Below, in pieces: positions 11,639-33,239 of a DNA stretch of 45,005 nt. The stretch is from a virus. The DNA is taken from IMG/VR virus record IMGVR_UViG_3300045988_045233, positions 1 through 45,005 of that record; one strand, written 5' to 3'. The stretch's first letter is position 1. The number at the start of each line of letters is the position of its first letter. Below the pieces are notes generated by a model. It worked only from the letters and a program-made list of their open reading frames with translations. It made no database searches and was not told the DNA's origin. The translations under genes and the position numbers were made by a program.

Positions 11639-12050
11639 ATGGCAAGCACTACATACGAGCATTTTGTTGACATCAACAAAATGTACGCCGCACAAGAGCA
11701 ATTTCGGCACGTCACGAAAATGGTCTGCGATTTTGTTGGCCTTAACAAAATCGACCATTTTGCCGTGCTTGGCAATATGGTGCGCAACGCCGGAGAGTTG
11801 CCGCAGCCTTTCTGGCTCGGTGCTGCCTGTGGCGGCGGCTCGTGTAGTGCTGCCCGCTGCGTTGCAAGGCCTTGACCGACAGCAGATGACCGCCGCCATT
11901 AAAAGCGCACCGCTTGGGAGGGTAGACCGAAAGATAGCTCTTTTGCGGTACGTTGAGCGGCTCCCGCTGCCGGACATCGCAGCGCAGACGCATTACAGCC
12001 GGACGGCGGTAGGCTACCGGCTGAAAAGCATTGCAAAAGTTTTTGAGTAA
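11639..12050 (+). pseudogene. Split or frameshifted sigma-70 region-4-like HTH regulator
   Basis: A strong RBS (TAAGGAGG) and ATG at 11639 open a frame that stops at 11873-11875. The +1 frame carries the HTH (RKIALLRYVERLPLPDIAAQTHYSRTAVGYRLKSIAKVFE) through to 12050 but has no convincing start of its own. Confidence 0.4.
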
Positions 12051-12887: not shown

Positions 12888-13045
12888 GCGCCCACCGCCT
12901 TTTTACCGGCCTTTACACCCTCTGCATAAGCGAAGTTCATAAGTTTGCAGACATCATCGGCGCAGTCTCTCAGCGTTTCATTAAGGTCGGCATCGGTCAA
13001 GCCAGACAGCTTCAGGAGAAAATCGCGCGTAAAAGGATAGTTCAT
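12884..13045 (-). CDS. Small hypothetical protein (53 aa), coupled to the antirepressor
   Basis: ATG at 13045. Its stop overlaps the antirepressor ATG (ATGA). Confidence 0.4.
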   Translation of the reverse strand: MNYPFTRDFLLKLSGLTDADLNETLRDCADDVCKLMNFAYAEGVKAGKKAVGA

Positions 13046-13135
13046 TGTAAAATACCTTTACTTTCTCCGTGAAATAATATAAAATAAAGGTACAAGAGGG
13101 GCTTTTGCTATGGTTGCTTCTTGTGCTTGGAGTGA

Positions 13136-13231
13136 TTAGCTGTTACGAGCGGCTAACCACTCTTTTTTATATTGCTCAAACAATTTGCGCTGCTGTTCAC
13201 GGTTCAGCCGTTGAAACTCTTTGAACTTCAT
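13136..13231 (-). CDS. Small hypothetical peptide (31 aa)
   Basis: ATG at 13231 preceded by AAAGGAGG. First ORF downstream of the minus-strand promoter. Confidence 0.35.
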   Translation of the reverse strand: MKFKEFQRLNREQQRKLFEQYKKEWLAARNS

Positions 13232-13268
13232 GGGCGTCCTCCTTTCCGCCCCTCTTGACCATACGTCT

Positions 13269-13297
13269 ATTATAATACGGTTTACAGCATATGTAAA
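13269..13297 (-). promoter_or_regulatory. Sigma-70-type promoter for the antirepressor operon
   Basis: On the minus strand: TTTACA (13297-13292), 17-nt spacer, TATAAT (13274-13269). Confidence 0.45.
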
Positions 13298-13313
13298 TTG
13301 TCACATTGTATAA

Positions 13314-13353
13314 TGTTTACCGCATAATTTTGTTTAATTTTATAGTGTAAACA
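13314..13353. promoter_or_regulatory. Inverted-repeat operator candidates TGTTTAC...GTAAACA
   Basis: TGTTTAC at 13314-13320 and GTAAACA at 13347-13353. Related half-sites GTTTACA at 13280-13286 and TGTAAA at 13292-13297 overlap both promoters. Confidence 0.45.
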
Positions 13354-13374
13354 GTGTTGCAAATGTGCTATAAT
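13346..13374 (+). promoter_or_regulatory. Extended -10 promoter for the ribbon-helix-helix gene
   Basis: TGcTATAAT at 13366-13374, with a weak -35 TGTAAA 17 nt upstream. Confidence 0.45.
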
Positions 13375-13416
13375 AGCATCGGGAAGCTTTTCTGAAAGTT
13401 GAAAGGAGGGAAAAGC

Positions 13417-13683
13417 ATGACTTCGGAATCTCAAAAAAGAGCAAATGCCAAATGGGACAAGGAGAACATGACGGTGCTGGCCTGCAAGGTGAGGAAGGAA
13501 GTTGCTGACAAGTTTAAAGCAGCTTGTGCGGCAGAAAATACGACCTCGAACGCCGTTTTACAGCAGGCAGTGCGGGACTATATCAATGCTCATCCCGTGC
13601 CGGAAGAGCCAAAAGCGCCACCGGGAGATGCAGAGACGGAAACCCGGCGGGCTGCACTGCTGGAACAAATCAAGAATCTGTAA
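13417..13683 (+). CDS. Ribbon-helix-helix (CopG/Arc/Mnt-like) DNA-binding protein
   Basis: 88 aa, ATG at 13417 after GAAAGGAGGG. The N-terminal beta-strand plus two-helix pattern (KENMTVLACKVRKEVADKFKAACAAENTTSNAVLQQAVRDYI) fits the fold. Confidence 0.65.
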   Translation: MTSESQKRANAKWDKENMTVLACKVRKEVADKFKAACAAENTTSNAVLQQAVRDYINAHPVPEEPKAPPGDAETETRRAALLEQIKNL

Positions 13684-13832
13684 AATAGAATAGCTGAAAA
13701 TTAAGCGCTCATGCGGTGTAATGTCGTGTGGGCGCTTTTTCTTTTTGTCCTTCGTTGTGCGTTCGTTGACTCTCTCGGCGGTTTAAAAAGGTAAACTGGT
13801 GCTACAAGATCAAGAAAGGACGGGGAAGCTTT

Positions 13833-14282
13833 ATGGCGTATCCTTTTGGCGGCTGGCAATCGAACCCTTACAGTGGGATGCCACCGATTGGCTTTGGGCA
13901 AGGCCAGTATCAGCAGCAAATGGCCCAGCAGGCCGCTCCACAGAGCGGGGGACAAAGCCCCTTCACGATGGTGCCAACCATCGCAGACGTGGACAAGGTT
14001 ATGGTGCAGCCCGGCGAAACGCGCTGGATCATGGTGCAAAACGAGCCTGTTATGGCTGTCAAAAAAGCAGACACGATGGGCTATGCCTCCGGCGAGTACT
14101 ACCGCCTGACAAAGATCGACCCGGCGGCGATGCAGACCCCGGCAGAGGCGCAGTATCTGACCTCTGCACAGGCAGATCAGAAGATACAGGCTGCCGTAAA
14201 GGCCGAGGTGGAGCGCGTGATGGCGCAGTATCAGACGGCCCCGGCGGCTCCTGCAAGGACCGCACGGGCAAAGGAGGGTTAA
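13833..14282 (+). CDS. Hypothetical protein, Gln/Gly/Pro-rich N-terminus
   Basis: 149 aa. First gene of the attP-proximal cargo cassette. Confidence 0.55.
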   Translation: MAYPFGGWQSNPYSGMPPIGFGQGQYQQQMAQQAAPQSGGQSPFTMVPTIADVDKVMVQPGETRWIMVQNEPVMAVKKADTMGYASGEYYRLTKIDPAAMQTPAEAQYLTSAQADQKIQAAVKAEVERVMAQYQTAPAAPARTARAKEG

Positions 14283-14285
14283 GGT

Positions 14286-14513
14286 ATGGCAAATCCCTTG
14301 ATGCAGTTTCTGGGCGGCACCTCCGGCCCATCCATGCCCAGCCCGATGGGCAATGTGATGCAGCTTCTCCGGCAGTTTCAGCAGTTCCGCTCCGCTTTCC
14401 AGGGAGATCCCCAAAAGCAGGTGGAAGAGCTGCGCAAGTCCGGTAAGATGTCAGATGAGCAGTACCACCAGCTGGAAGCGATGGCAAAGCAGATCATACC
14501 TTTCATCAAGTAA
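14286..14513 (+). CDS. Hypothetical small helical protein
   Basis: 75 aa, 3-nt gap from the upstream gene, Gln-rich helices. Confidence 0.55.
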   Translation: MANPLMQFLGGTSGPSMPSPMGNVMQLLRQFQQFRSAFQGDPQKQVEELRKSGKMSDEQYHQLEAMAKQIIPFIK

Positions 14514-14573
14514 TCGAAAAATCGTGGCCACGATTTGAAATAATTTCACTATTCGCAAGAAAGGAAATCAACT

Positions 14574-15215
14574 ATGGATAACATGTCTTTGAGCGATATC
14601 GCTGCCGTGACCCGTGGCAACGATAACGACGGCTGGGGCCAGGGCGGCGCGTGGTGGATCATCATCCTCTTTTTGTTCGTCTTTATGGGCGGCAATGGTC
14701 TCTGGGGCAACCGCACCGGCGAGTACGGCCAGTATGCCACCGCGGCAAGCCAGCAGGAAATCCTCTATGGCCAGCAGTTTGGCCAGCTGAACGACCGCCT
14801 GACCAACATCGGCAACGGTATCTGTAATCTCGGTTATGAGATGCAGGGCAATATCGGTCAGCTGGGCAAAGAGGTTGCTCTGGCTCAGGCAGGCACCAAC
14901 ACCACCATCCTGCAGACCGGCAACGGCATCCAGGCACAGCTTGCTCAGTGCTGCTGCGACAACCGGCTGGCGACTGCCAACCTGGCAGCCCAGATGGACA
15001 AGCAGACCTGCGCGATCAACTCCAACATTGACGCAAAGTTTGCCGAGCTGCAGAAGAACCAGCTTGAGCAGACCATCGCGGCACAGGCCCAGCGGATCAG
15101 TCAGCTGGAGCTGGCCTCCCAGATGTACGGCGTTGTGAAGTACCCCAACGGCTACTCCTACAATGCGGGCCCGAGCCCCTTCTGCGGCTGCAATAACGGC
15201 TGCGGCAACATCTAA
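14574..15215 (+). CDS. Hypothetical membrane-anchored coiled-coil protein with Cys-rich motifs
   Basis: 213 aa. TM segment GGAWWIIILFLFVFMGG, long Gln/Asn-rich coiled region, CCCDN motif and C-terminal FCGCNNGCGNI. Confidence 0.6.
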   Translation: MDNMSLSDIAAVTRGNDNDGWGQGGAWWIIILFLFVFMGGNGLWGNRTGEYGQYATAASQQEILYGQQFGQLNDRLTNIGNGICNLGYEMQGNIGQLGKEVALAQAGTNTTILQTGNGIQAQLAQCCCDNRLATANLAAQMDKQTCAINSNIDAKFAELQKNQLEQTIAAQAQRISQLELASQMYGVVKYPNGYSYNAGPSPFCGCNNGCGNI

Positions 15216-15290
15216 CACATACGCCCTTTTGGCGAGGTTCGGCGGGGCGGCAAAGGCTGCTCCGCCTTTTATATAAGGAAGGAGATTTTT

Positions 15291-15692
15291 ATGTCTAAAT
15301 CTGCTATTTATACCGCCAACACCTCGGCTCAGACCGTGGCGGTAAACGATATTATTCCTGTCGGCACCACTTCCCGGCGGTTTGGCTGCAACATTCGGCA
15401 GGACGGCAACACCATCACCCTGTTGGGTCAGGGCTACTACCATGTGACCGTGTCCGCTACACTGGCTCCCACGGCTGCGGGCACTGTGACCCTGACCGGC
15501 CAGAAGGACGGCGTGGCTGTCATCGGCGCTACCGCTTCTCAGGCTGTGGCCACTGCGGCTGCACCGACCAATCTGGCATTGACTTTCCTGGTGCGCAATG
15601 CGTGCGGCTGCGAAAGCTCTATCCTGAGCTTCCTGCTGACCGGTACTGCTGCCGCGGTGAACAATATGGCTGTGGCCGTGGAAAAACTGTAA
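15291..15692 (+). CDS. Hypothetical beta-rich protein, BclA-C-terminal/C1q-like pattern
   Basis: 133 aa, RBS AAGGAAGGAG. Ala/Thr/Val-rich beta-strand pattern (GYYHVTVSATL, LTFLVRN). Confidence 0.5.
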   Translation: MSKSAIYTANTSAQTVAVNDIIPVGTTSRRFGCNIRQDGNTITLLGQGYYHVTVSATLAPTAAGTVTLTGQKDGVAVIGATASQAVATAAAPTNLALTFLVRNACGCESSILSFLLTGTAAAVNNMAVAVEKL

Positions 15693-15708
15693 GGGGGAGG
15701 ACCTGGTT

Positions 15709-16047
15709 ATGATGGACGAAGCAAAGTTTGCAGGGTATAAGGACACACTCGTTCATGCTGCAAAGCAAATGGCCGAAGAGTACAGCGATGCGATGAACTA
15801 CGCAAGCATGGCAATGGACTATAAAACTGTCTGCCCCTACGCTTCTTCTGAGTGGTATAAGCTCTCTGGGGAAGAAATGGAGCACGCTGACGCAAACCGC
15901 CGCATTGCACAGAAAATCCTTACCGGCGTTGACAGCGAGGATTCTGCAGCAGGCGTAGAGCTGCATCACATGTGGAGCATGGCGGAAGACCTTGTTTCTG
16001 GCCTGTGCGAAGCCGTTACAAAAGAACGCTCCGCATACATGCGTTGA
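15709..16047 (+). CDS. Hypothetical helical protein with an EEMEH motif
   Basis: 112 aa. Last gene before attP. Confidence 0.5.
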   Translation: MMDEAKFAGYKDTLVHAAKQMAEEYSDAMNYASMAMDYKTVCPYASSEWYKLSGEEMEHADANRRIAQKILTGVDSEDSAAGVELHHMWSMAEDLVSGLCEAVTKERSAYMR

Positions 16048-16116
16048 ATTTTTGCAACATTTGTTGTAAGATAAGGCGGGCGATTTATCGCTTTTAGAAT
16101 ACGCCATAAGCGAACA

Positions 16117-16127
16117 ACAAGCTAACA
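16117..16127 (+). repeat. Candidate integrase arm-type site ACAAGCTAACA (P arm)
   Basis: Exact 11-mer, repeated in direct orientation at 16311-16321 on the other side of the core. Confidence 0.45.
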
Positions 16128-16162
16128 CTTACTGCAAAAATAGCATAAATACGAAAAATATT

Positions 16163-16212
16163 ATTGATTTGTAATCAGTGGGTTGCAGGTTCAACTCCTG
16201 TCACCAGCTCCA
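16163..16212 (+). other. attP core: 3' 50 nt of a tRNA-Thr(UGU) gene (anticodon arm through CCA)
   Basis: ATTGA-TTTGTAA-TCAGT anticodon arm (anticodon TGT), GCAGG-TTCAACT-CCTGT T arm, CACCAGC acceptor strand, T, CCA. No D arm or 5' acceptor strand lies upstream. The integrase gene is adjacent. Confidence 0.7.
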
Positions 16213-16217
16213 AAAAA

Positions 16218-16265
16218 ATGCCGTTCATTCGTGATATTGAATCACATGAACGGCATTTTCTTTTG
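16218..16265 (+). terminator. Intrinsic terminator following the tRNA fragment
   Basis: Perfect 11-bp stem ATGCCGTTCAT/ATGAACGGCAT followed by TTTTCTTTT. Confidence 0.65.
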
Positions 16266-16310
16266 CGAAAACACGGCAAAAATCGGTAATAATCCGGAAT
16301 AAACTAACAA

Positions 16311-16321
16311 ACAAGCTAACA
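16311..16321 (+). repeat. Candidate integrase arm-type site ACAAGCTAACA (P' arm)
   Basis: Second exact copy. A partial CTAACA lies at 16304-16309. Confidence 0.45.
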
Positions 16322-16324
16322 AAA

Positions 16325-17455
16325 TCAGTATTTCATCTTTTGCATTTCCTGTAACAAGTATGTCGGGTCGTTGTGGGAAACGTACTTGTTTGCTGTGGTG
16401 GAAAAATTTTTGTGGCCGAGGATAGCCTGCACGGCAGTTTTTTCAAGACCGCACTCCACCATCTTGCTGCTGGCCGTGTGGCGAAGGGTGTGCGGGTGCA
16501 CACCATCGATCTGACACTCCTGCATCAAGGCTCGGAACTTTGTGGCCACGTTTCGCTTGTCCAGCTTCGTTCCGGCCTTGGAAGGTATCAGCCACTCGCA
16601 CCCGCTGTCCATCATCCAGAAGGCGATGATCTTGTAAATGGGGTCGAGGATGGGGATGATGCGGTTTTTGCCCGCTTCCGTTTTTTCACCGCCCTGCATG
16701 TAGTGCTCTTTCAGGTACACGTTCTCGCAGCGCATGGAAAGCAGCTCATCGATGCGCATACCGGTATAGAGAAGCACCATAGCGATCTGGGCCGTCTGGC
16801 CGAAGCGCTTGTCGGTCTGGTAGGCGCTGATCCGGGCAATCTCGTCCGCCGTAAGGGTGCGCTCTGCCTTTCCGGCTGCGGCAGGAAGGTGAAGGAGCTG
16901 GGCATAGTTCTTGTTTATGATGTCCTGGGCCATTGCCCACTCACATAGCTGGCTGAAAAGGGTGCGCTGCTTCTCACACGAGCTGCGGGAGAGACCGTCT
17001 GCAACCATCTGGTCTATGATCTGCTGATAGTCCTCCGCTTTCAGGTCTCGCATTTGTCGGCTGTACAGCGGAGCGGATTTTTTGAAAGCCAGCTCGTATC
17101 CATTTATCATGTCCCGGCTGAGACTTGAAAACTTCGGCTGTGCCCGCCATTTTTCGTAGGCATCCGCAAAAGTACACTTCAGGCGTTCTGCCGGGGTGTT
17201 CTGGGCATTGTATGCGTCAAGCGCCTGGACGGCTTCTCCGGGCGTTCCGTATGTGCCCAGCACTTCCTTTTTCCCGGTCATGGCTACATAGGGCCTTGCC
17301 CGGACCCCTTTCAGCTTGTACACGCTGCCGCTTCCCTTTGGGCGGCGGCGCTTTTTTCTATGCACGGGAGCGGACGTTGCATCCTGCTGCTTTCCGCACC
17401 ACGGGCAAAATAAAGCCTTGTCCGGGATGTTTACGTGGCATCTGACACACTTCAT
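16325..17455 (-). CDS. int: Tyrosine integrase with an N-terminal zinc ribbon
   Basis: 376 aa with the catalytic pattern TGMRIDELL, HTLRHT, LGH and ANKYVSH (R..HxxR..H..Y). N-terminal CxxC...CxxC. RBS AAAGGAG. Confidence 0.9.
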   Translation of the reverse strand: MKCVRCHVNIPDKALFCPWCGKQQDATSAPVHRKKRRRPKGSGSVYKLKGVRARPYVAMTGKKEVLGTYGTPGEAVQALDAYNAQNTPAERLKCTFADAYEKWRAQPKFSSLSRDMINGYELAFKKSAPLYSRQMRDLKAEDYQQIIDQMVADGLSRSSCEKQRTLFSQLCEWAMAQDIINKNYAQLLHLPAAAGKAERTLTADEIARISAYQTDKRFGQTAQIAMVLLYTGMRIDELLSMRCENVYLKEHYMQGGEKTEAGKNRIIPILDPIYKIIAFWMMDSGCEWLIPSKAGTKLDKRNVATKFRALMQECQIDGVHPHTLRHTASSKMVECGLEKTAVQAILGHKNFSTTANKYVSHNDPTYLLQEMQKMKY

Positions 17456-33163: not shown

Positions 33164-33239
33164 ACTCCGGCAGCTCAAGTGGTAGAGCAGCGGTCTCCAA
33201 AACCGCAGGTTGCAGGTTCGAGCCCTGCCTGGAGTGCCA
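33164..33239 (+). tRNA. tRNA-Trp (anticodon CCA), CCA-encoded
   Basis: 76-nt cloverleaf: acceptor ACTCCGG/CTGGAGT, D arm GCTC-AAGTGGTA-GAGC, anticodon arm GCGGT-CTCCAAA-ACCGC, T arm GCAGG-TTCGAGC-CCTGC, discriminator G, CCA. Position 8 is C. Confidence 0.85.

What the first reader, a model, noticed from the sequence alone, without database searches (positions are those of the whole stretch)
13833..16047. Five-gene cargo cassette of unknown function between the immI-like block and attP
In the integrated state these five co-oriented, tightly spaced genes would sit at the prophage end, next to attR and after the lysis genes. That is the classical moron or lysogenic-conversion position.

Products:
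- a 149-aa protein with a Q/G/P-rich N-terminus;
- a 75-aa Gln-rich helical protein;
- a 213-aa protein with a GGAWWIIILFLFVFMGG membrane segment, a long Q/N-rich coiled region, a CCCDN motif and a FCGCNNGCGNI tail;
- a 133-aa beta-rich protein whose pattern resembles the BclA C-terminal / C1q-like jelly roll;
- a 112-aa helical protein with an EEMEH motif.

None is a recognisable phage structural, lysis or regulatory protein. Their GC content matches the phage, so they are long-term residents. The combination of membrane anchor, Cys-rich motifs and a C1q-like fold suggests a cell-surface assembly made in the lysogen.
Basis: partly seen in the sequence, partly recalled or inferred. Interest (0 to 1): 0.62.

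Follow-up and report, generated by a model that had tools for sequence, protein, structure and literature searches.

The report
Conserved gut-phage membrane/BclA-like gene cassette
The five genes are real, but they are one copy of a widespread, uncharacterised, self-contained cassette that also occurs in phages with no integrase, so they are probably a phage function at the cell membrane and not a surface structure given to the lysogen.

Summary
Observation confirmed. Five co-oriented genes (13833-16047) lie between the antirepressor/RHH block and a tRNA-Thr attP plus integrase, and third-codon substitution bias supports all five frames.

Interpretation only partly supported.
- The genes are not sporadic cargo. 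The order g1-g2-g3-g4-g5, usually preceded by a small sigma-70-region-4-type HTH gene, recurs in all 80 related IMG/VR loci examined and in 23 MAG loci, down to about 33% identity.
- The cassette also occurs in two complete IMG/VR phage genomes with no integrase hit. Its g1 and g3 families also occur in the cultured Clostridium perfringens phage CPD1.
- The g3 family (phrog_16490) reaches Crassvirales and a virus assigned to Methanomassiliicoccales.
- g4 is BclA_C/C1q-like (sub-threshold but recurrent). The EEMEH motif of g5 is a ferritin-type ExxH site.
- Only g3 has a membrane segment, and none of the other four has an export signal, so a lysogen surface assembly is unlikely.
- New here: a covarying two-hairpin terminator-like RNA element between g3 and g4.

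Function remains unknown. My best guess is a self-regulated, membrane-anchored stalk-and-knob complex made during phage development. This scan has met the same cassette at least 18 times on other DNA.

The parts
11639..12050 (+). Small sigma-70-region-4-type HTH gene, split over two frames in this phage. It corresponds to the regulator gene that precedes the cassette in relatives.
   Evidence: Pfam Sigma70_r4_2, E 9.6e-4, on the frame-2 product. Relatives carry 79-95-aa Sigma70_r4 proteins directly upstream of g1. The split versus the single 140-aa ORF in L006 was seen.
13703..13737 (+). Terminator-like hairpin plus T-run that marks the 5' boundary of the cassette.
   Evidence: The same hairpin precedes g1 in relatives whose upstream genes differ.
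13751..13797 (+). Candidate promoter region: direct repeats TTCGTTG (13751-13757 and 13762-13768), TTGACT (13766-13771), a 20-nt spacer, then TAAACT (13792-13797).
   Evidence: Read from the sequence. No canonical sigma-70 site was scored here. In other subfamilies a -10-like TAYCAT/TATGAT follows the upstream hairpin directly. This is inference only.
13833..14282 (+). g1: disordered Q/G/P/Y-rich N-terminus (1-40), a small beta core (about 41-100), a C-terminal helix and a basic tail. Family phrog_21718.
   Evidence: AF2 gives the core pLDDT 82-91. No PDB fold match. 27 uncharacterised viral matches in BFVD.
14286..14513 (+). g2: 75-aa helical protein, family phrog_22984.
   Evidence: PHROG E 1.2e-14. 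Conserved position.
14519..14536 (+). GC-centred palindrome AAATCGTGGCCACGATTT followed by an AT-rich tract in the g2-g3 spacer.
   Evidence: An equivalent palindrome plus TTTAT tract is present in the g2-g3 spacers of nearly all loci listed.
14574..15215 (+). g3: single hydrophobic Gly/Trp-flanked segment (about 26-40), an invariant juxtamembrane Q-rich block, a long helix, a CCC motif and a Cys-rich C-terminal tail. Family phrog_16490.
   Evidence: 3,888 homologues at 90% clustering. 1,967 clusters at 50% identity. The AF2 model is poor, pLDDT 46.6.
15222..15272 (+). Conserved two-hairpin RNA element (hairpin 1 at 15222-15234, hairpin 2 at 15241-15266) plus a U-tract. It is a terminator or attenuator between g3 and g4.
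   Evidence: 91.6% of cells are paired against 41-51% in slid controls, and 9 of 11 pairs show compensatory changes.
15291..15692 (+). g4: BclA C-terminal / C1q-TNF-like beta protein with conserved Cys.
   Evidence: Pfam BclA_C E 1.8e-4, below the cut-off. 14 of 17 diverse members hit BclA_C and nothing else, best E 7.4e-7. The top five PDB profile hits are all BclA.
15709..16047 (+). g5: short ferritin-like helical protein. EEMEH is the ExxH metal-site motif.
   Evidence: The profile matches ferritin BfrB helices A-B, E 1.9e-4. Weak Rubrerythrin hits in relatives. E24, E56 and H59 are nearly invariant.
16163..16213 (+). attP core: 3' part of a tRNA-Thr gene (context).
   Evidence: blastn to phage tRNA-Thr genes. 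Rfam tRNA partial match at 16145-16201.
16325..17455 (-). Tyrosine integrase (context).
   Evidence: Pfam Phage_integrase E 2.4e-29, phrog_1.

Best explanation
**Identity (shown).** The five genes are one copy of a widespread, self-contained phage cassette: a small HTH regulator followed by g1-g5. It moves as a unit among phages of gut Clostridia. Parts of it reach Crassvirales and a virus assigned to an archaeon.

**Mechanism (inferred).**
- The cassette is its own transcription unit. A terminator hairpin upstream is followed by a promoter with a weak or absent -35, probably switched on by the linked HTH protein.
- Hairpin and U-tract elements after g2 and after g3 probably grade expression as g1, g2 >= g3 > g4, g5.
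- g3 inserts in the cytoplasmic membrane by its single Gly/Trp-flanked segment. It carries a long helical stalk with Cys clusters.
- g4, a BclA_C/TNF-like protein and presumably a trimer, is the knob-type partner.
- g1 (disordered head plus small beta domain), g2 (helical) and g5 (ferritin-like di-metal hairpin) are cytoplasmic accessories.
- Four of the five proteins have no export signal and the cassette is not tied to lysogeny. So the complex most likely forms on the inner face of the membrane during phage development and serves the phage. Candidate roles are control of membrane events around lysis or entry, or exclusion. It is unlikely to decorate the lysogen's surface.
For: **Synteny**
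- All 80 IMG/VR loci keep the g3-g4 core. 78 of 80 have the g4 cluster. The g1 slot is filled by two subfamilies, both phrog_21718. The g5 slot is filled by the ferritin-like protein (44 loci) or DUF7841 (26 loci).
- The order is kept in MAG loci down to 33-42% g3 identity.
- A regulator gene of Sigma70_r4 type lies directly upstream.

**Transcription signals**
- Insulation and promoter-like elements upstream of g1.
- The covarying hairpin element between g3 and g4.

**No export signals**
- Maximum hydropathy over 15 residues is 2.32 for g3 only.

**Not lysogeny-bound**
- The records holding L020 (41.3 kb) and L025 (38.7 kb, terminal repeats) are rated 100% complete and have no PF00589 or PF00239 hit. 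The L020 record encodes its own PolA and PurA.
- CPD1 carries g1 and g3 homologues and has no integrase-family hit.
- The crass-like phage cr116_1 carries a phrog_16490 protein with the same Gly/Trp segment, a QCCCS motif and a Cys tail. It lies between the lysis/terS genes and the capsid gene.
- vir215, assigned to Methanomassiliicoccales, carries a phrog_16490 gene.
Against: - There are no expression data of any kind, so neither 'late' nor 'not in the lysogen' is shown.
- The g3 model is unreliable, so the stalk, its topology and its oligomeric state are inferred.
- The g3-g4 contact is inferred only from linkage and from Cys-rich ends.
- In this phage the cassette is separated from the late genes by an opposite-strand antirepressor operon and sits next to attP. 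That fits expression from the prophage.
- In this phage the regulator gene is split over two frames.
- Absence of integrase hits does not prove a strictly lytic lifestyle.
- A ferritin-like protein and a TNF-like protein have no precedent in lysis or exclusion systems.
Confidence: 0.45

Rival explanations
1. Virion-associated fibre or decoration. g3 would be a coiled-coil stalk and g4 a trimeric C1q/TNF-like knob, attached to capsid or tail. The Cys clusters would cross-link it outside the cell, and the hydrophobic segment would act in assembly or membrane penetration.
For: - Depositors annotated the Crassvirales homologues 'spike protein/glycoprotein' or 'outer capsid protein/viral fiber'. 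In cr116_1 the gene lies between terS and the scaffold-like and capsid genes.
- Stalk-plus-TNF-like-knob is a common fibre design (general knowledge).
- The family occurs in phages of hosts with three different envelope types. That argues for a host-independent role.
- Earlier notes of this scan report the cassette inside head-gene clusters (not checked here for Clostridia phages).
Against: - In this phage the cassette lies outside the contiguous structural block, behind the lysis genes and an opposite-strand operon.
- It has its own regulator and insulation.
- A Gly/Trp-flanked hydrophobic segment is unusual in a fibre.
- The depositor annotations are untested names.
- No virion proteome exists for any carrier.
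Confidence: 0.2
2. Prophage-expressed superinfection-exclusion or defence module. A membrane complex made in the lysogen (and early by lytic carriers) would block DNA entry or abort infection by other phages.
For: - The position next to attP at the prophage end.
- A terminator-insulated unit with its own promoter-like region.
- Mosaic exchange of alleles. In L007, g3 is 95% identical but g4 only 66%. In L008, g3 is 95% but g1 only 41%. The g5 slot has alternative occupants and the C-terminal half of g3 varies. This pattern is typical of arms-race genes.
- Lytic phages also carry exclusion genes (general knowledge: T4 imm and sp).
Against: - No PADLOC or NCBIfam defence model matches. The best hit is ZorA at E 0.03-0.06, which is not significant.
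- The g3 core is far more conserved than the neighbouring lysins and integrases and spans phages of unrelated hosts. Known exclusion proteins are not like that.
- Five proteins, including a ferritin-like one, are not explained.
Confidence: 0.2
3. One reading: lysogenic-conversion cargo that builds a structure on the surface of the lysogen.
For: - The classical lysin-to-attR slot.
- A membrane segment in g3.
- A BclA_C/C1q-like g4.
Against: - g1, g2, g4 and g5 have no signal peptide or lipobox-like N-terminus.
- The cassette is present in complete phage genomes without integrases, and its core families are in CPD1.
- It is near-universal, not sporadic, in related phages.
Confidence: 0.07
4. A spore-coat or exosporium-type kit: BclA-like knob, YjcZ-like peptide, Cys-rich and Tyr-rich proteins, a ferritin-like protein and a GerE-size HTH, delivered by the phage to sporulating hosts.
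For: - The BclA_C similarity.
- The compositional resemblance of g1, g3 and g5 to coat proteins (recalled from memory, not tested).
- Some hosts, such as C. perfringens, form spores.
Against: - No NCBIfam sporulation family matches, YjcZ included.
- g4 lacks the collagen-like region and N-terminal leader of BclA.
- g3 homologues occur in Crassvirales, whose hosts are Bacteroidales, and in a virus assigned to an archaeon.
- Earlier agents report carriers in non-sporulating hosts (not tested here).
Confidence: 0.03

Closest known systems
BclA C-terminal domain (Pfam PF18573; PDB 1wck, 2z5w, 3twi), a C1q/TNF-like trimeric jelly roll of the Bacillus exosporium nap
   Same: g4 aligns over about 105 residues with the domain. 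14 of 17 diverse g4 homologues hit only this Pfam family, and the top five PDB profile hits are all BclA.
   Different: All scores are below Pfam's gathering cut-off (21.8 against 38 bits for this copy). g4 is the bare domain, with no collagen-like stalk and no exosporium-targeting leader. It is encoded by phages whose hosts include non-spore-formers. The fold was not modelled here.
Phage morons and lysogenic-conversion genes in the lysin-attR slot of Gram-positive prophages (for example lambda bor/lom, HK97 gp15, streptococcal and staphylococcal toxin genes; from general knowledge)
   Same: The position at the prophage end after the lysis genes. A terminator upstream and a promoter-like region of its own.
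   Different: Morons are sporadic single genes. This is a six-gene unit conserved across thousands of phages, with its own regulator. It is also found in integrase-less phages and, for g3, in head-gene neighbourhoods.
Ferritin / bacterioferritin / rubrerythrin superfamily
   Same: The g5 profile matches ferritin BfrB helices A-B, including the E...ExxH metal ligands. These residues are nearly invariant in the g5 family.
   Different: g5 is only about 100-112 aa, roughly half a ferritin subunit. Relatives can replace it with a DUF7841 protein or a 189-aa protein. Metal binding is untested.
Membrane-anchored superinfection-exclusion proteins (Ltp of Streptococcus phage TP-J34, Sie2009 of lactococcal phages, HK97 gp15; from general knowledge)
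   Same: A small phage-encoded membrane protein beside the lysogeny region that could act on incoming phage at the membrane.
   Different: There is no sequence similarity and no lipoprotein signal. This is a multi-protein operon, and g3 is conserved across phages of unrelated hosts.
Crassvirales 'spike protein/glycoprotein' and 'outer capsid protein/viral fiber' genes as annotated in GenBank (for example cr116_1 gp_24157)
   Same: The same PHROG family (phrog_16490, E 1.8e-50). They share the Gly/Trp-rich hydrophobic segment, the CCC motif and the Cys-rich C-terminus, and are followed by a small Cys-containing beta-rich protein.
   Different: They are longer (298 aa, with an extra N-terminal helical part) and lie between terS and the capsid genes. 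g1, g4 and g5 profiles do not detect their neighbours. The names are untested annotations.

Membership tests
BclA_C (PF18573) / C1q-TNF-like trimers | Sequence match above the curated Pfam cut-off | tested here: not met
   21.8 bits against a cut-off of 38 for the window's g4. The best E-value among 17 homologues is 7.4e-7.
BclA_C (PF18573) / C1q-TNF-like trimers | Consistent, exclusive remote similarity across diverse members | tested here: met
   14 of 17 members hit BclA_C and no other family. The profile's top five PDB hits are all BclA, E 7e-4 to 8e-3.
BclA_C (PF18573) / C1q-TNF-like trimers | Jelly-roll fold forming a trimer | not tested
BclA-type exosporium protein | N-terminal targeting leader plus a collagen-like GXX repeat stalk | tested here: not met
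   g4 is 133 aa and starts directly with the beta domain.
Moron / lysogenic-conversion gene | Own promoter and terminator, insulated from the late operon | tested here: inconclusive
   The upstream terminator hairpin is clear. Only weak or atypical promoter candidates were found. There is no strong terminator after g5.
Moron / lysogenic-conversion gene | Sporadic presence among otherwise related phages | tested here: not met
   The g3-g4 core is in 78-80 of 80 loci, and the order is kept down to 33% identity.
Moron / lysogenic-conversion gene | Restricted to temperate phages and expressed from the prophage | tested here: not met
   Present in two complete genomes without PF00589 or PF00239 hits, with core families also in CPD1. 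Expression could not be tested.
Secreted or surface-displayed proteins | Sec or lipoprotein signal peptide, or a wall-anchor motif | tested here: not met
   No hydrophobic N-terminal region in g1, g2, g4 or g5. The best 15-residue hydropathy among windows starting in the first 25 residues is -0.47, 0.22, 0.71 and -0.15. This was a simple hydropathy test only.
Ferritin-like superfamily | E ... ExxH di-metal ligands on paired helices | tested here: met
   E24, E56 and H59 are nearly invariant. They align to ferritin BfrB helices A-B at E 1.9e-4.
Ferritin-like superfamily | Complete four-helix bundle of about 140-180 aa with two ligand pairs | tested here: not met
   g5 is 112 aa, and only profile positions 7-56 align.
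YjcZ-family sporulation peptides and other spore-coat families | Match to the curated NCBIfam or Pfam models | tested here: not met
   No such family at E <= 1 (NCBIfam) or E <= 0.1 (Pfam) for any of the five proteins.
Known anti-phage defence systems (PADLOC-DB) | Match to a defence-protein model | tested here: not met
   Only non-significant hits: ZorA at E 0.028 and DrmMI at E 0.013.
phrog_16490 / phrog_21718 / phrog_22984 (viral families of unknown function) | Significant match to the PHROG profile | tested here: met
   g3 3.6e-16 and g2 1.2e-14. g1 itself is weak at 0.012, but its subfamily partners score 1e-7 to 1.6e-8 and align with it.

The most novel reading that the evidence does not exclude
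The g3/g4 'membrane segment - Cys-rich stalk - C1q/TNF-like knob' device may be independent of the bacterial host and directed at the gut environment. It would be shared by viruses of Clostridia, Bacteroidales and methanogenic archaea. It would be released on lysis, or carried on particles or membrane debris, and act outside the cell, for example by binding mucosal or particulate ligands or cell debris. It would not be a lysis, exclusion or lysogenic-conversion function.
Probability: 0.15. Interest if true: 0.8.

Novelty: new variant of a known kind. Interest (0 to 1): 0.55.

Why it matters
About 2,000 clusters at 50% identity (3,888 at 90%) of the central protein exist in public data. Nearly all those whose source was seen come from animal-gut samples. 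No member has a tested function or a paper that I could find.

A six-gene unit kept intact across temperate and integrase-less phages, with its core protein reaching Crassvirales and a virus assigned to an archaeon, probably encodes a general step of gut-phage biology that current models lack.

C. perfringens phages that have been isolated in culture carry its core families, and these can be manipulated. The cassette also has clear, testable parts: a regulator, a promoter, an internal attenuator, a membrane protein and a small knob protein.

For this window specifically, the result removes a tempting but unsupported claim that the prophage gives its host a new surface structure.

Tried and rejected
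- **AlphaFold2 on g3** with a 26-sequence alignment gave pLDDT 46.6, so it was unusable for fold search.
- **The g1 model** has a confident core but no PDB match (best E 0.095, SH2-like, not meaningful). BFVD returned only uncharacterised gut-phage proteins.
- **The g3 profile against PDB** gave nothing significant. AhlC at E 0.095 over 32 residues was rejected as chance.
- **NCBIfam and PADLOC** gave no significant family.
- **Rfam** gave no family in 13000-16400 apart from the partial tRNA.
- **Two searches of the 5.8-billion-protein set** returned only 'hypothetical protein' names.
- **Literature searches** (DUF7841, Faecalibacterium prophage proteomics, CPD1-type phages, crAss 'spike protein') found nothing about these genes.
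- **The order-level genome search** returned no taxon names and only 9 of 401 genomes with hits, 2 of them strong. It gave sporadic distribution but no host list.
- **The 392-aa antisense ORF** over g3-g4 was considered and rejected because of the codon-position bias.
- **The collagen-repeat gene** beside the cassette in one relative was considered as a cassette member and rejected. It occurs in only one of the three loci shown.
Full report
**1.

One search lists five + strand ORFs at the stated coordinates:
- g1: 13833-14282, 149 aa
- g2: 14286-14513, 75 aa
- g3: 14574-15215, 213 aa
- g4: 15291-15692, 133 aa
- g5: 15709-16047, 112 aa

They are 3, 60, 75 and 16 nt apart, and every quoted motif is present.

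Differences from relatives fall mainly on third codon positions in all five frames. So these are coding frames, and the 392-aa antisense ORF over g3-g4 is an artefact of the high GC content. GC over 14-16 kb (0.56-0.57) equals that of the late genes.

The window is a complete 45-kb virus record with terminal repeats.
- Upstream lie a GH25-type lysin, holin-like genes, a small split sigma-70-region-4-like gene, a Rha/KilAC antirepressor on the other strand and an RHH gene.
- Downstream lie a tRNA-Thr 3' fragment and a tyrosine integrase.

In a relative integrated in a 917-kb contig, the five genes are the last phage genes before unrelated mobile-element genes.

**2. What the proteins are.**

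- **g4.** It matches the BclA C-terminal domain below Pfam's threshold (E 1.8e-4). The signal is consistent, however. 14 of 17 diverse homologues hit BclA_C and nothing else, and a profile of them finds only BclA chains at the top of the PDB list.
- **g5.** The family has nearly invariant E24, E56 and H59. Its profile aligns with helices A-B of ferritin BfrB (E 1.9e-4). The 'EEMEH motif' is therefore a ferritin-type ExxH site in a half-length protein.
- **g3.** It belongs to phrog_16490. It has the only hydrophobic segment of the five, an almost invariant block just after it (YATAASQQEILFGQQFGQLNDRLTNIGNGIC), a long predicted helix, a CCC motif and a Cys-rich tail. Its AlphaFold model is unreliable (pLDDT 46.6).
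- **g1.** It has a disordered Q/G/P/Y-rich head, a confidently modelled small beta core (pLDDT 82-91) and a helix. The PDB holds no match. BFVD returns 27 uncharacterised proteins from uncultured viruses.
- **g2.** It belongs to phrog_22984.

NCBIfam and PADLOC give nothing significant. None of g1, g2, g4 or g5 has a signal-peptide-like N-terminus.

**3. The five genes are a conserved unit, not cargo.**

A scan of IMG/VR with g3 found more than 540 relatives. In the best 80 loci:
- the g4 family follows g3 in 78;
- the slot before g3 holds g2;
- the slot before g2 holds one of two g1 subfamilies, which align with each other and both match phrog_21718;
- the slot after g4 holds either the ferritin-like g5 (44 loci) or a DUF7841 protein (26 loci).

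The neighbouring lysins and integrases are unrelated or only 22-35% identical in many of these loci, while g3 stays at 62-98%. Alleles are shuffled. In L007, g3 is 95% identical but g4 only 66%. In L008, g3 is 95% but g1 only 41%.

In 23 loci from species-representative genomes, all of them MAGs and mostly labelled Oscillospiraceae or Clostridia, the same order persists down to 33-42% g3 identity. A small Sigma70_r4-type HTH gene sits directly upstream in most loci. In this window its counterpart is at 11639-12050. It is separated from g1 by the inserted antirepressor/RHH block and is split over two frames, as in most close relatives.

The family is large: 3,888 clusters at 90% identity and 1,967 at 50% identity.

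**4. The cassette is not tied to lysogeny or to one host type.**

- **Integrase-less complete genomes.** Two IMG/VR genomes rated 100% complete carry the cassette: the records holding L020 (41.3 kb) and L025 (38.7 kb, terminal repeats). Neither has a hit to tyrosine-integrase or resolvase-type serine-recombinase models. In the L020 record the cassette is followed by the phage's own adenylosuccinate synthetase and family-A DNA polymerase genes.
- **A cultured phage.** The Clostridium perfringens phage CPD1 has a g1 homologue (CPD1_036, phrog_21718). This is followed by a g2-like 77-aa gene, an inserted 207-aa gene, and a g3 homologue (CPD1_039, phrog_16490; my g3 profile gives E 3.7e-16). Next comes a Cys-rich 125-aa protein. 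The genome gives no integrase-family hit, and five further C. perfringens phages carry the g3 homologue.
- **Crassvirales.** The strongest phrog_16490 match seen here is in this order. cr116_1 gp_24157 (E 1.8e-50 to the PHROG, 1.2e-12 to my profile) has the same Gly/Trp-flanked hydrophobic segment, a QCCCS motif and a Cys-rich end. It lies between the holin/endolysin/terS genes and the capsid gene.
- **A virus assigned to an archaeon.** A virus assigned by its depositors to Methanomassiliicoccales carries a phrog_16490 gene between its tail/retroelement genes and its integrase.

These results contradict a lysogen-specific or spore-specific role.

**5. Transcription signals.**

- **Upstream of g1.** A terminator-like hairpin (13703-13737) precedes g1. 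The same hairpin bounds the cassette in relatives whose upstream genes differ.
- **Promoter in other subfamilies.** The regulator gene's terminator is followed at once by a -10-like TAYCAT/TATGAT/TACAAT element and the RBS, with no room for a normal -35.
- **Promoter in this window.** The best candidate is TTGACT, a 20-nt spacer and TAAACT, overlapped by two TTCGTTG repeats. This fits an activator-dependent promoter, but that is inference.
- **g2-g3 spacer.** Nearly all loci have a GC-centred palindrome followed by an AT-rich tract.
- **g3-g4 spacer.** Nearly all loci have a small hairpin, a strong GC hairpin and usually a U-tract, ending 10-25 nt before the g4 start. On 32 diverse sequences, 91.6% of cells pair against 41-51% for slid controls. 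9 of 11 pairs show compensatory changes, and no shuffle reaches the observed covariation score. Rfam has no such family.

With no room for a promoter after it, this element most simply acts as an attenuator or 3' stabiliser that makes g1-g3 more abundant than g4-g5.

**6. Best reading and its limits.**

- **Shown:** gene reality, family assignments, the conserved six-gene unit, its independence from integration, and the conserved RNA element.
- **Inferred:** g3 is a membrane-inserted stalk, g4 a trimeric knob-type partner, the others cytoplasmic accessories, and the unit is switched on by its own HTH protein during phage development.

I put 0.45 on that general reading. Within it I cannot choose between a role in lysis or egress and a role in blocking further infection.

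Rivals:
- a virion fibre or decoration (0.2), helped by the Crassvirales context and depositor names;
- a prophage-expressed exclusion module (0.2), helped by the att-proximal insulated position and allele shuffling;
- a spore-coat kit (0.03).

**7. Relation to earlier work in this scan.**

The same cassette has been reported at least 18 times on other DNA, with the same overall verdict: conserved, widespread, function unknown.

- the synteny;
- the BclA_C and regulator assignments;
- the occurrence in integrase-less phages.

It adds, as far as the notes shown tell:
- the ferritin-type site of g5;
- the covarying g3-g4 RNA element;
- the C. perfringens phage carriers;
- the placement of g3 in the family whose strongest match seen here is in Crassvirales.

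Noticed in passing
window 11639-12050: The small sigma-70-region-4-like gene after the lysis genes is split over two frames here and in most close relatives. One relative (L006) has a single 140-aa ORF joining both parts. This could be a programmed frameshift, an internal start (MTAAIK...) or decay.
   Followed up: partly
window 15222-15272 and the g3-g4 spacers of about 60 loci: A conserved two-hairpin plus U-tract RNA element with compensatory base changes. It has no Rfam family. It is probably an attenuator that sets the g3:g4 ratio.
   Followed up: yes
window 14519-14536 and the g2-g3 spacers of about 55 loci: A GC-centred palindrome (CGTGGCCACG, CGGTGCGCAACG or GGGTCGACAC types) followed by TTTAT..ATAAA. 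It could be an operator or a weak terminator.
   Followed up: partly
window 13751-13768: Two direct TTCGTTG repeats overlap the candidate -35 of the cassette promoter. Relatives have two or three such repeats, or TTGCGCACTC-type repeats, at the same place.
   Followed up: no
L116:6681-8462: One close relative carries a 593-aa protein with collagen GXX repeats, inserted between the lysis genes and the cassette. The window and the other two loci shown lack it.
   Followed up: partly
L118:6182-6805 (CPD1_038): In C. perfringens phage CPD1 a 207-aa Cys-motif protein is inserted between the g2-like and g3-like genes. It looks like a homing-endonuclease-type insertion, but it was not scanned.
   Followed up: no
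L102:3655-5215: A g1-g3-g4 trio without g2 or g5 sits between a response-regulator gene and a HAD-hydrolase gene on a contig binned as Eggerthellaceae. This may be a non-phage context or a binning artefact.
   Followed up: no
L020:7295-7861, L103:7095-7658, L094:7063-7935: In several carriers, including the integrase-less L020 genome, the g5 slot holds a 188-291-aa protein (MTV.EI...H....G.M.H.Q...Y..FL.L.G). It has no Pfam match. By eye it looks like a full-length ferritin-like protein.
   Followed up: partly
window 33164-33239: The phage carries a complete tRNA-Trp (CCA) gene just before its packaging and head genes.
   Followed up: no
L030-L052, upstream of g1 (for example L037:5258-5392): One subfamily has an extra 45-60-aa ORF (MYDRLIACGYTEQMA...) between the cassette promoter and g1. 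This could be a seventh, optional cassette gene.
   Followed up: no
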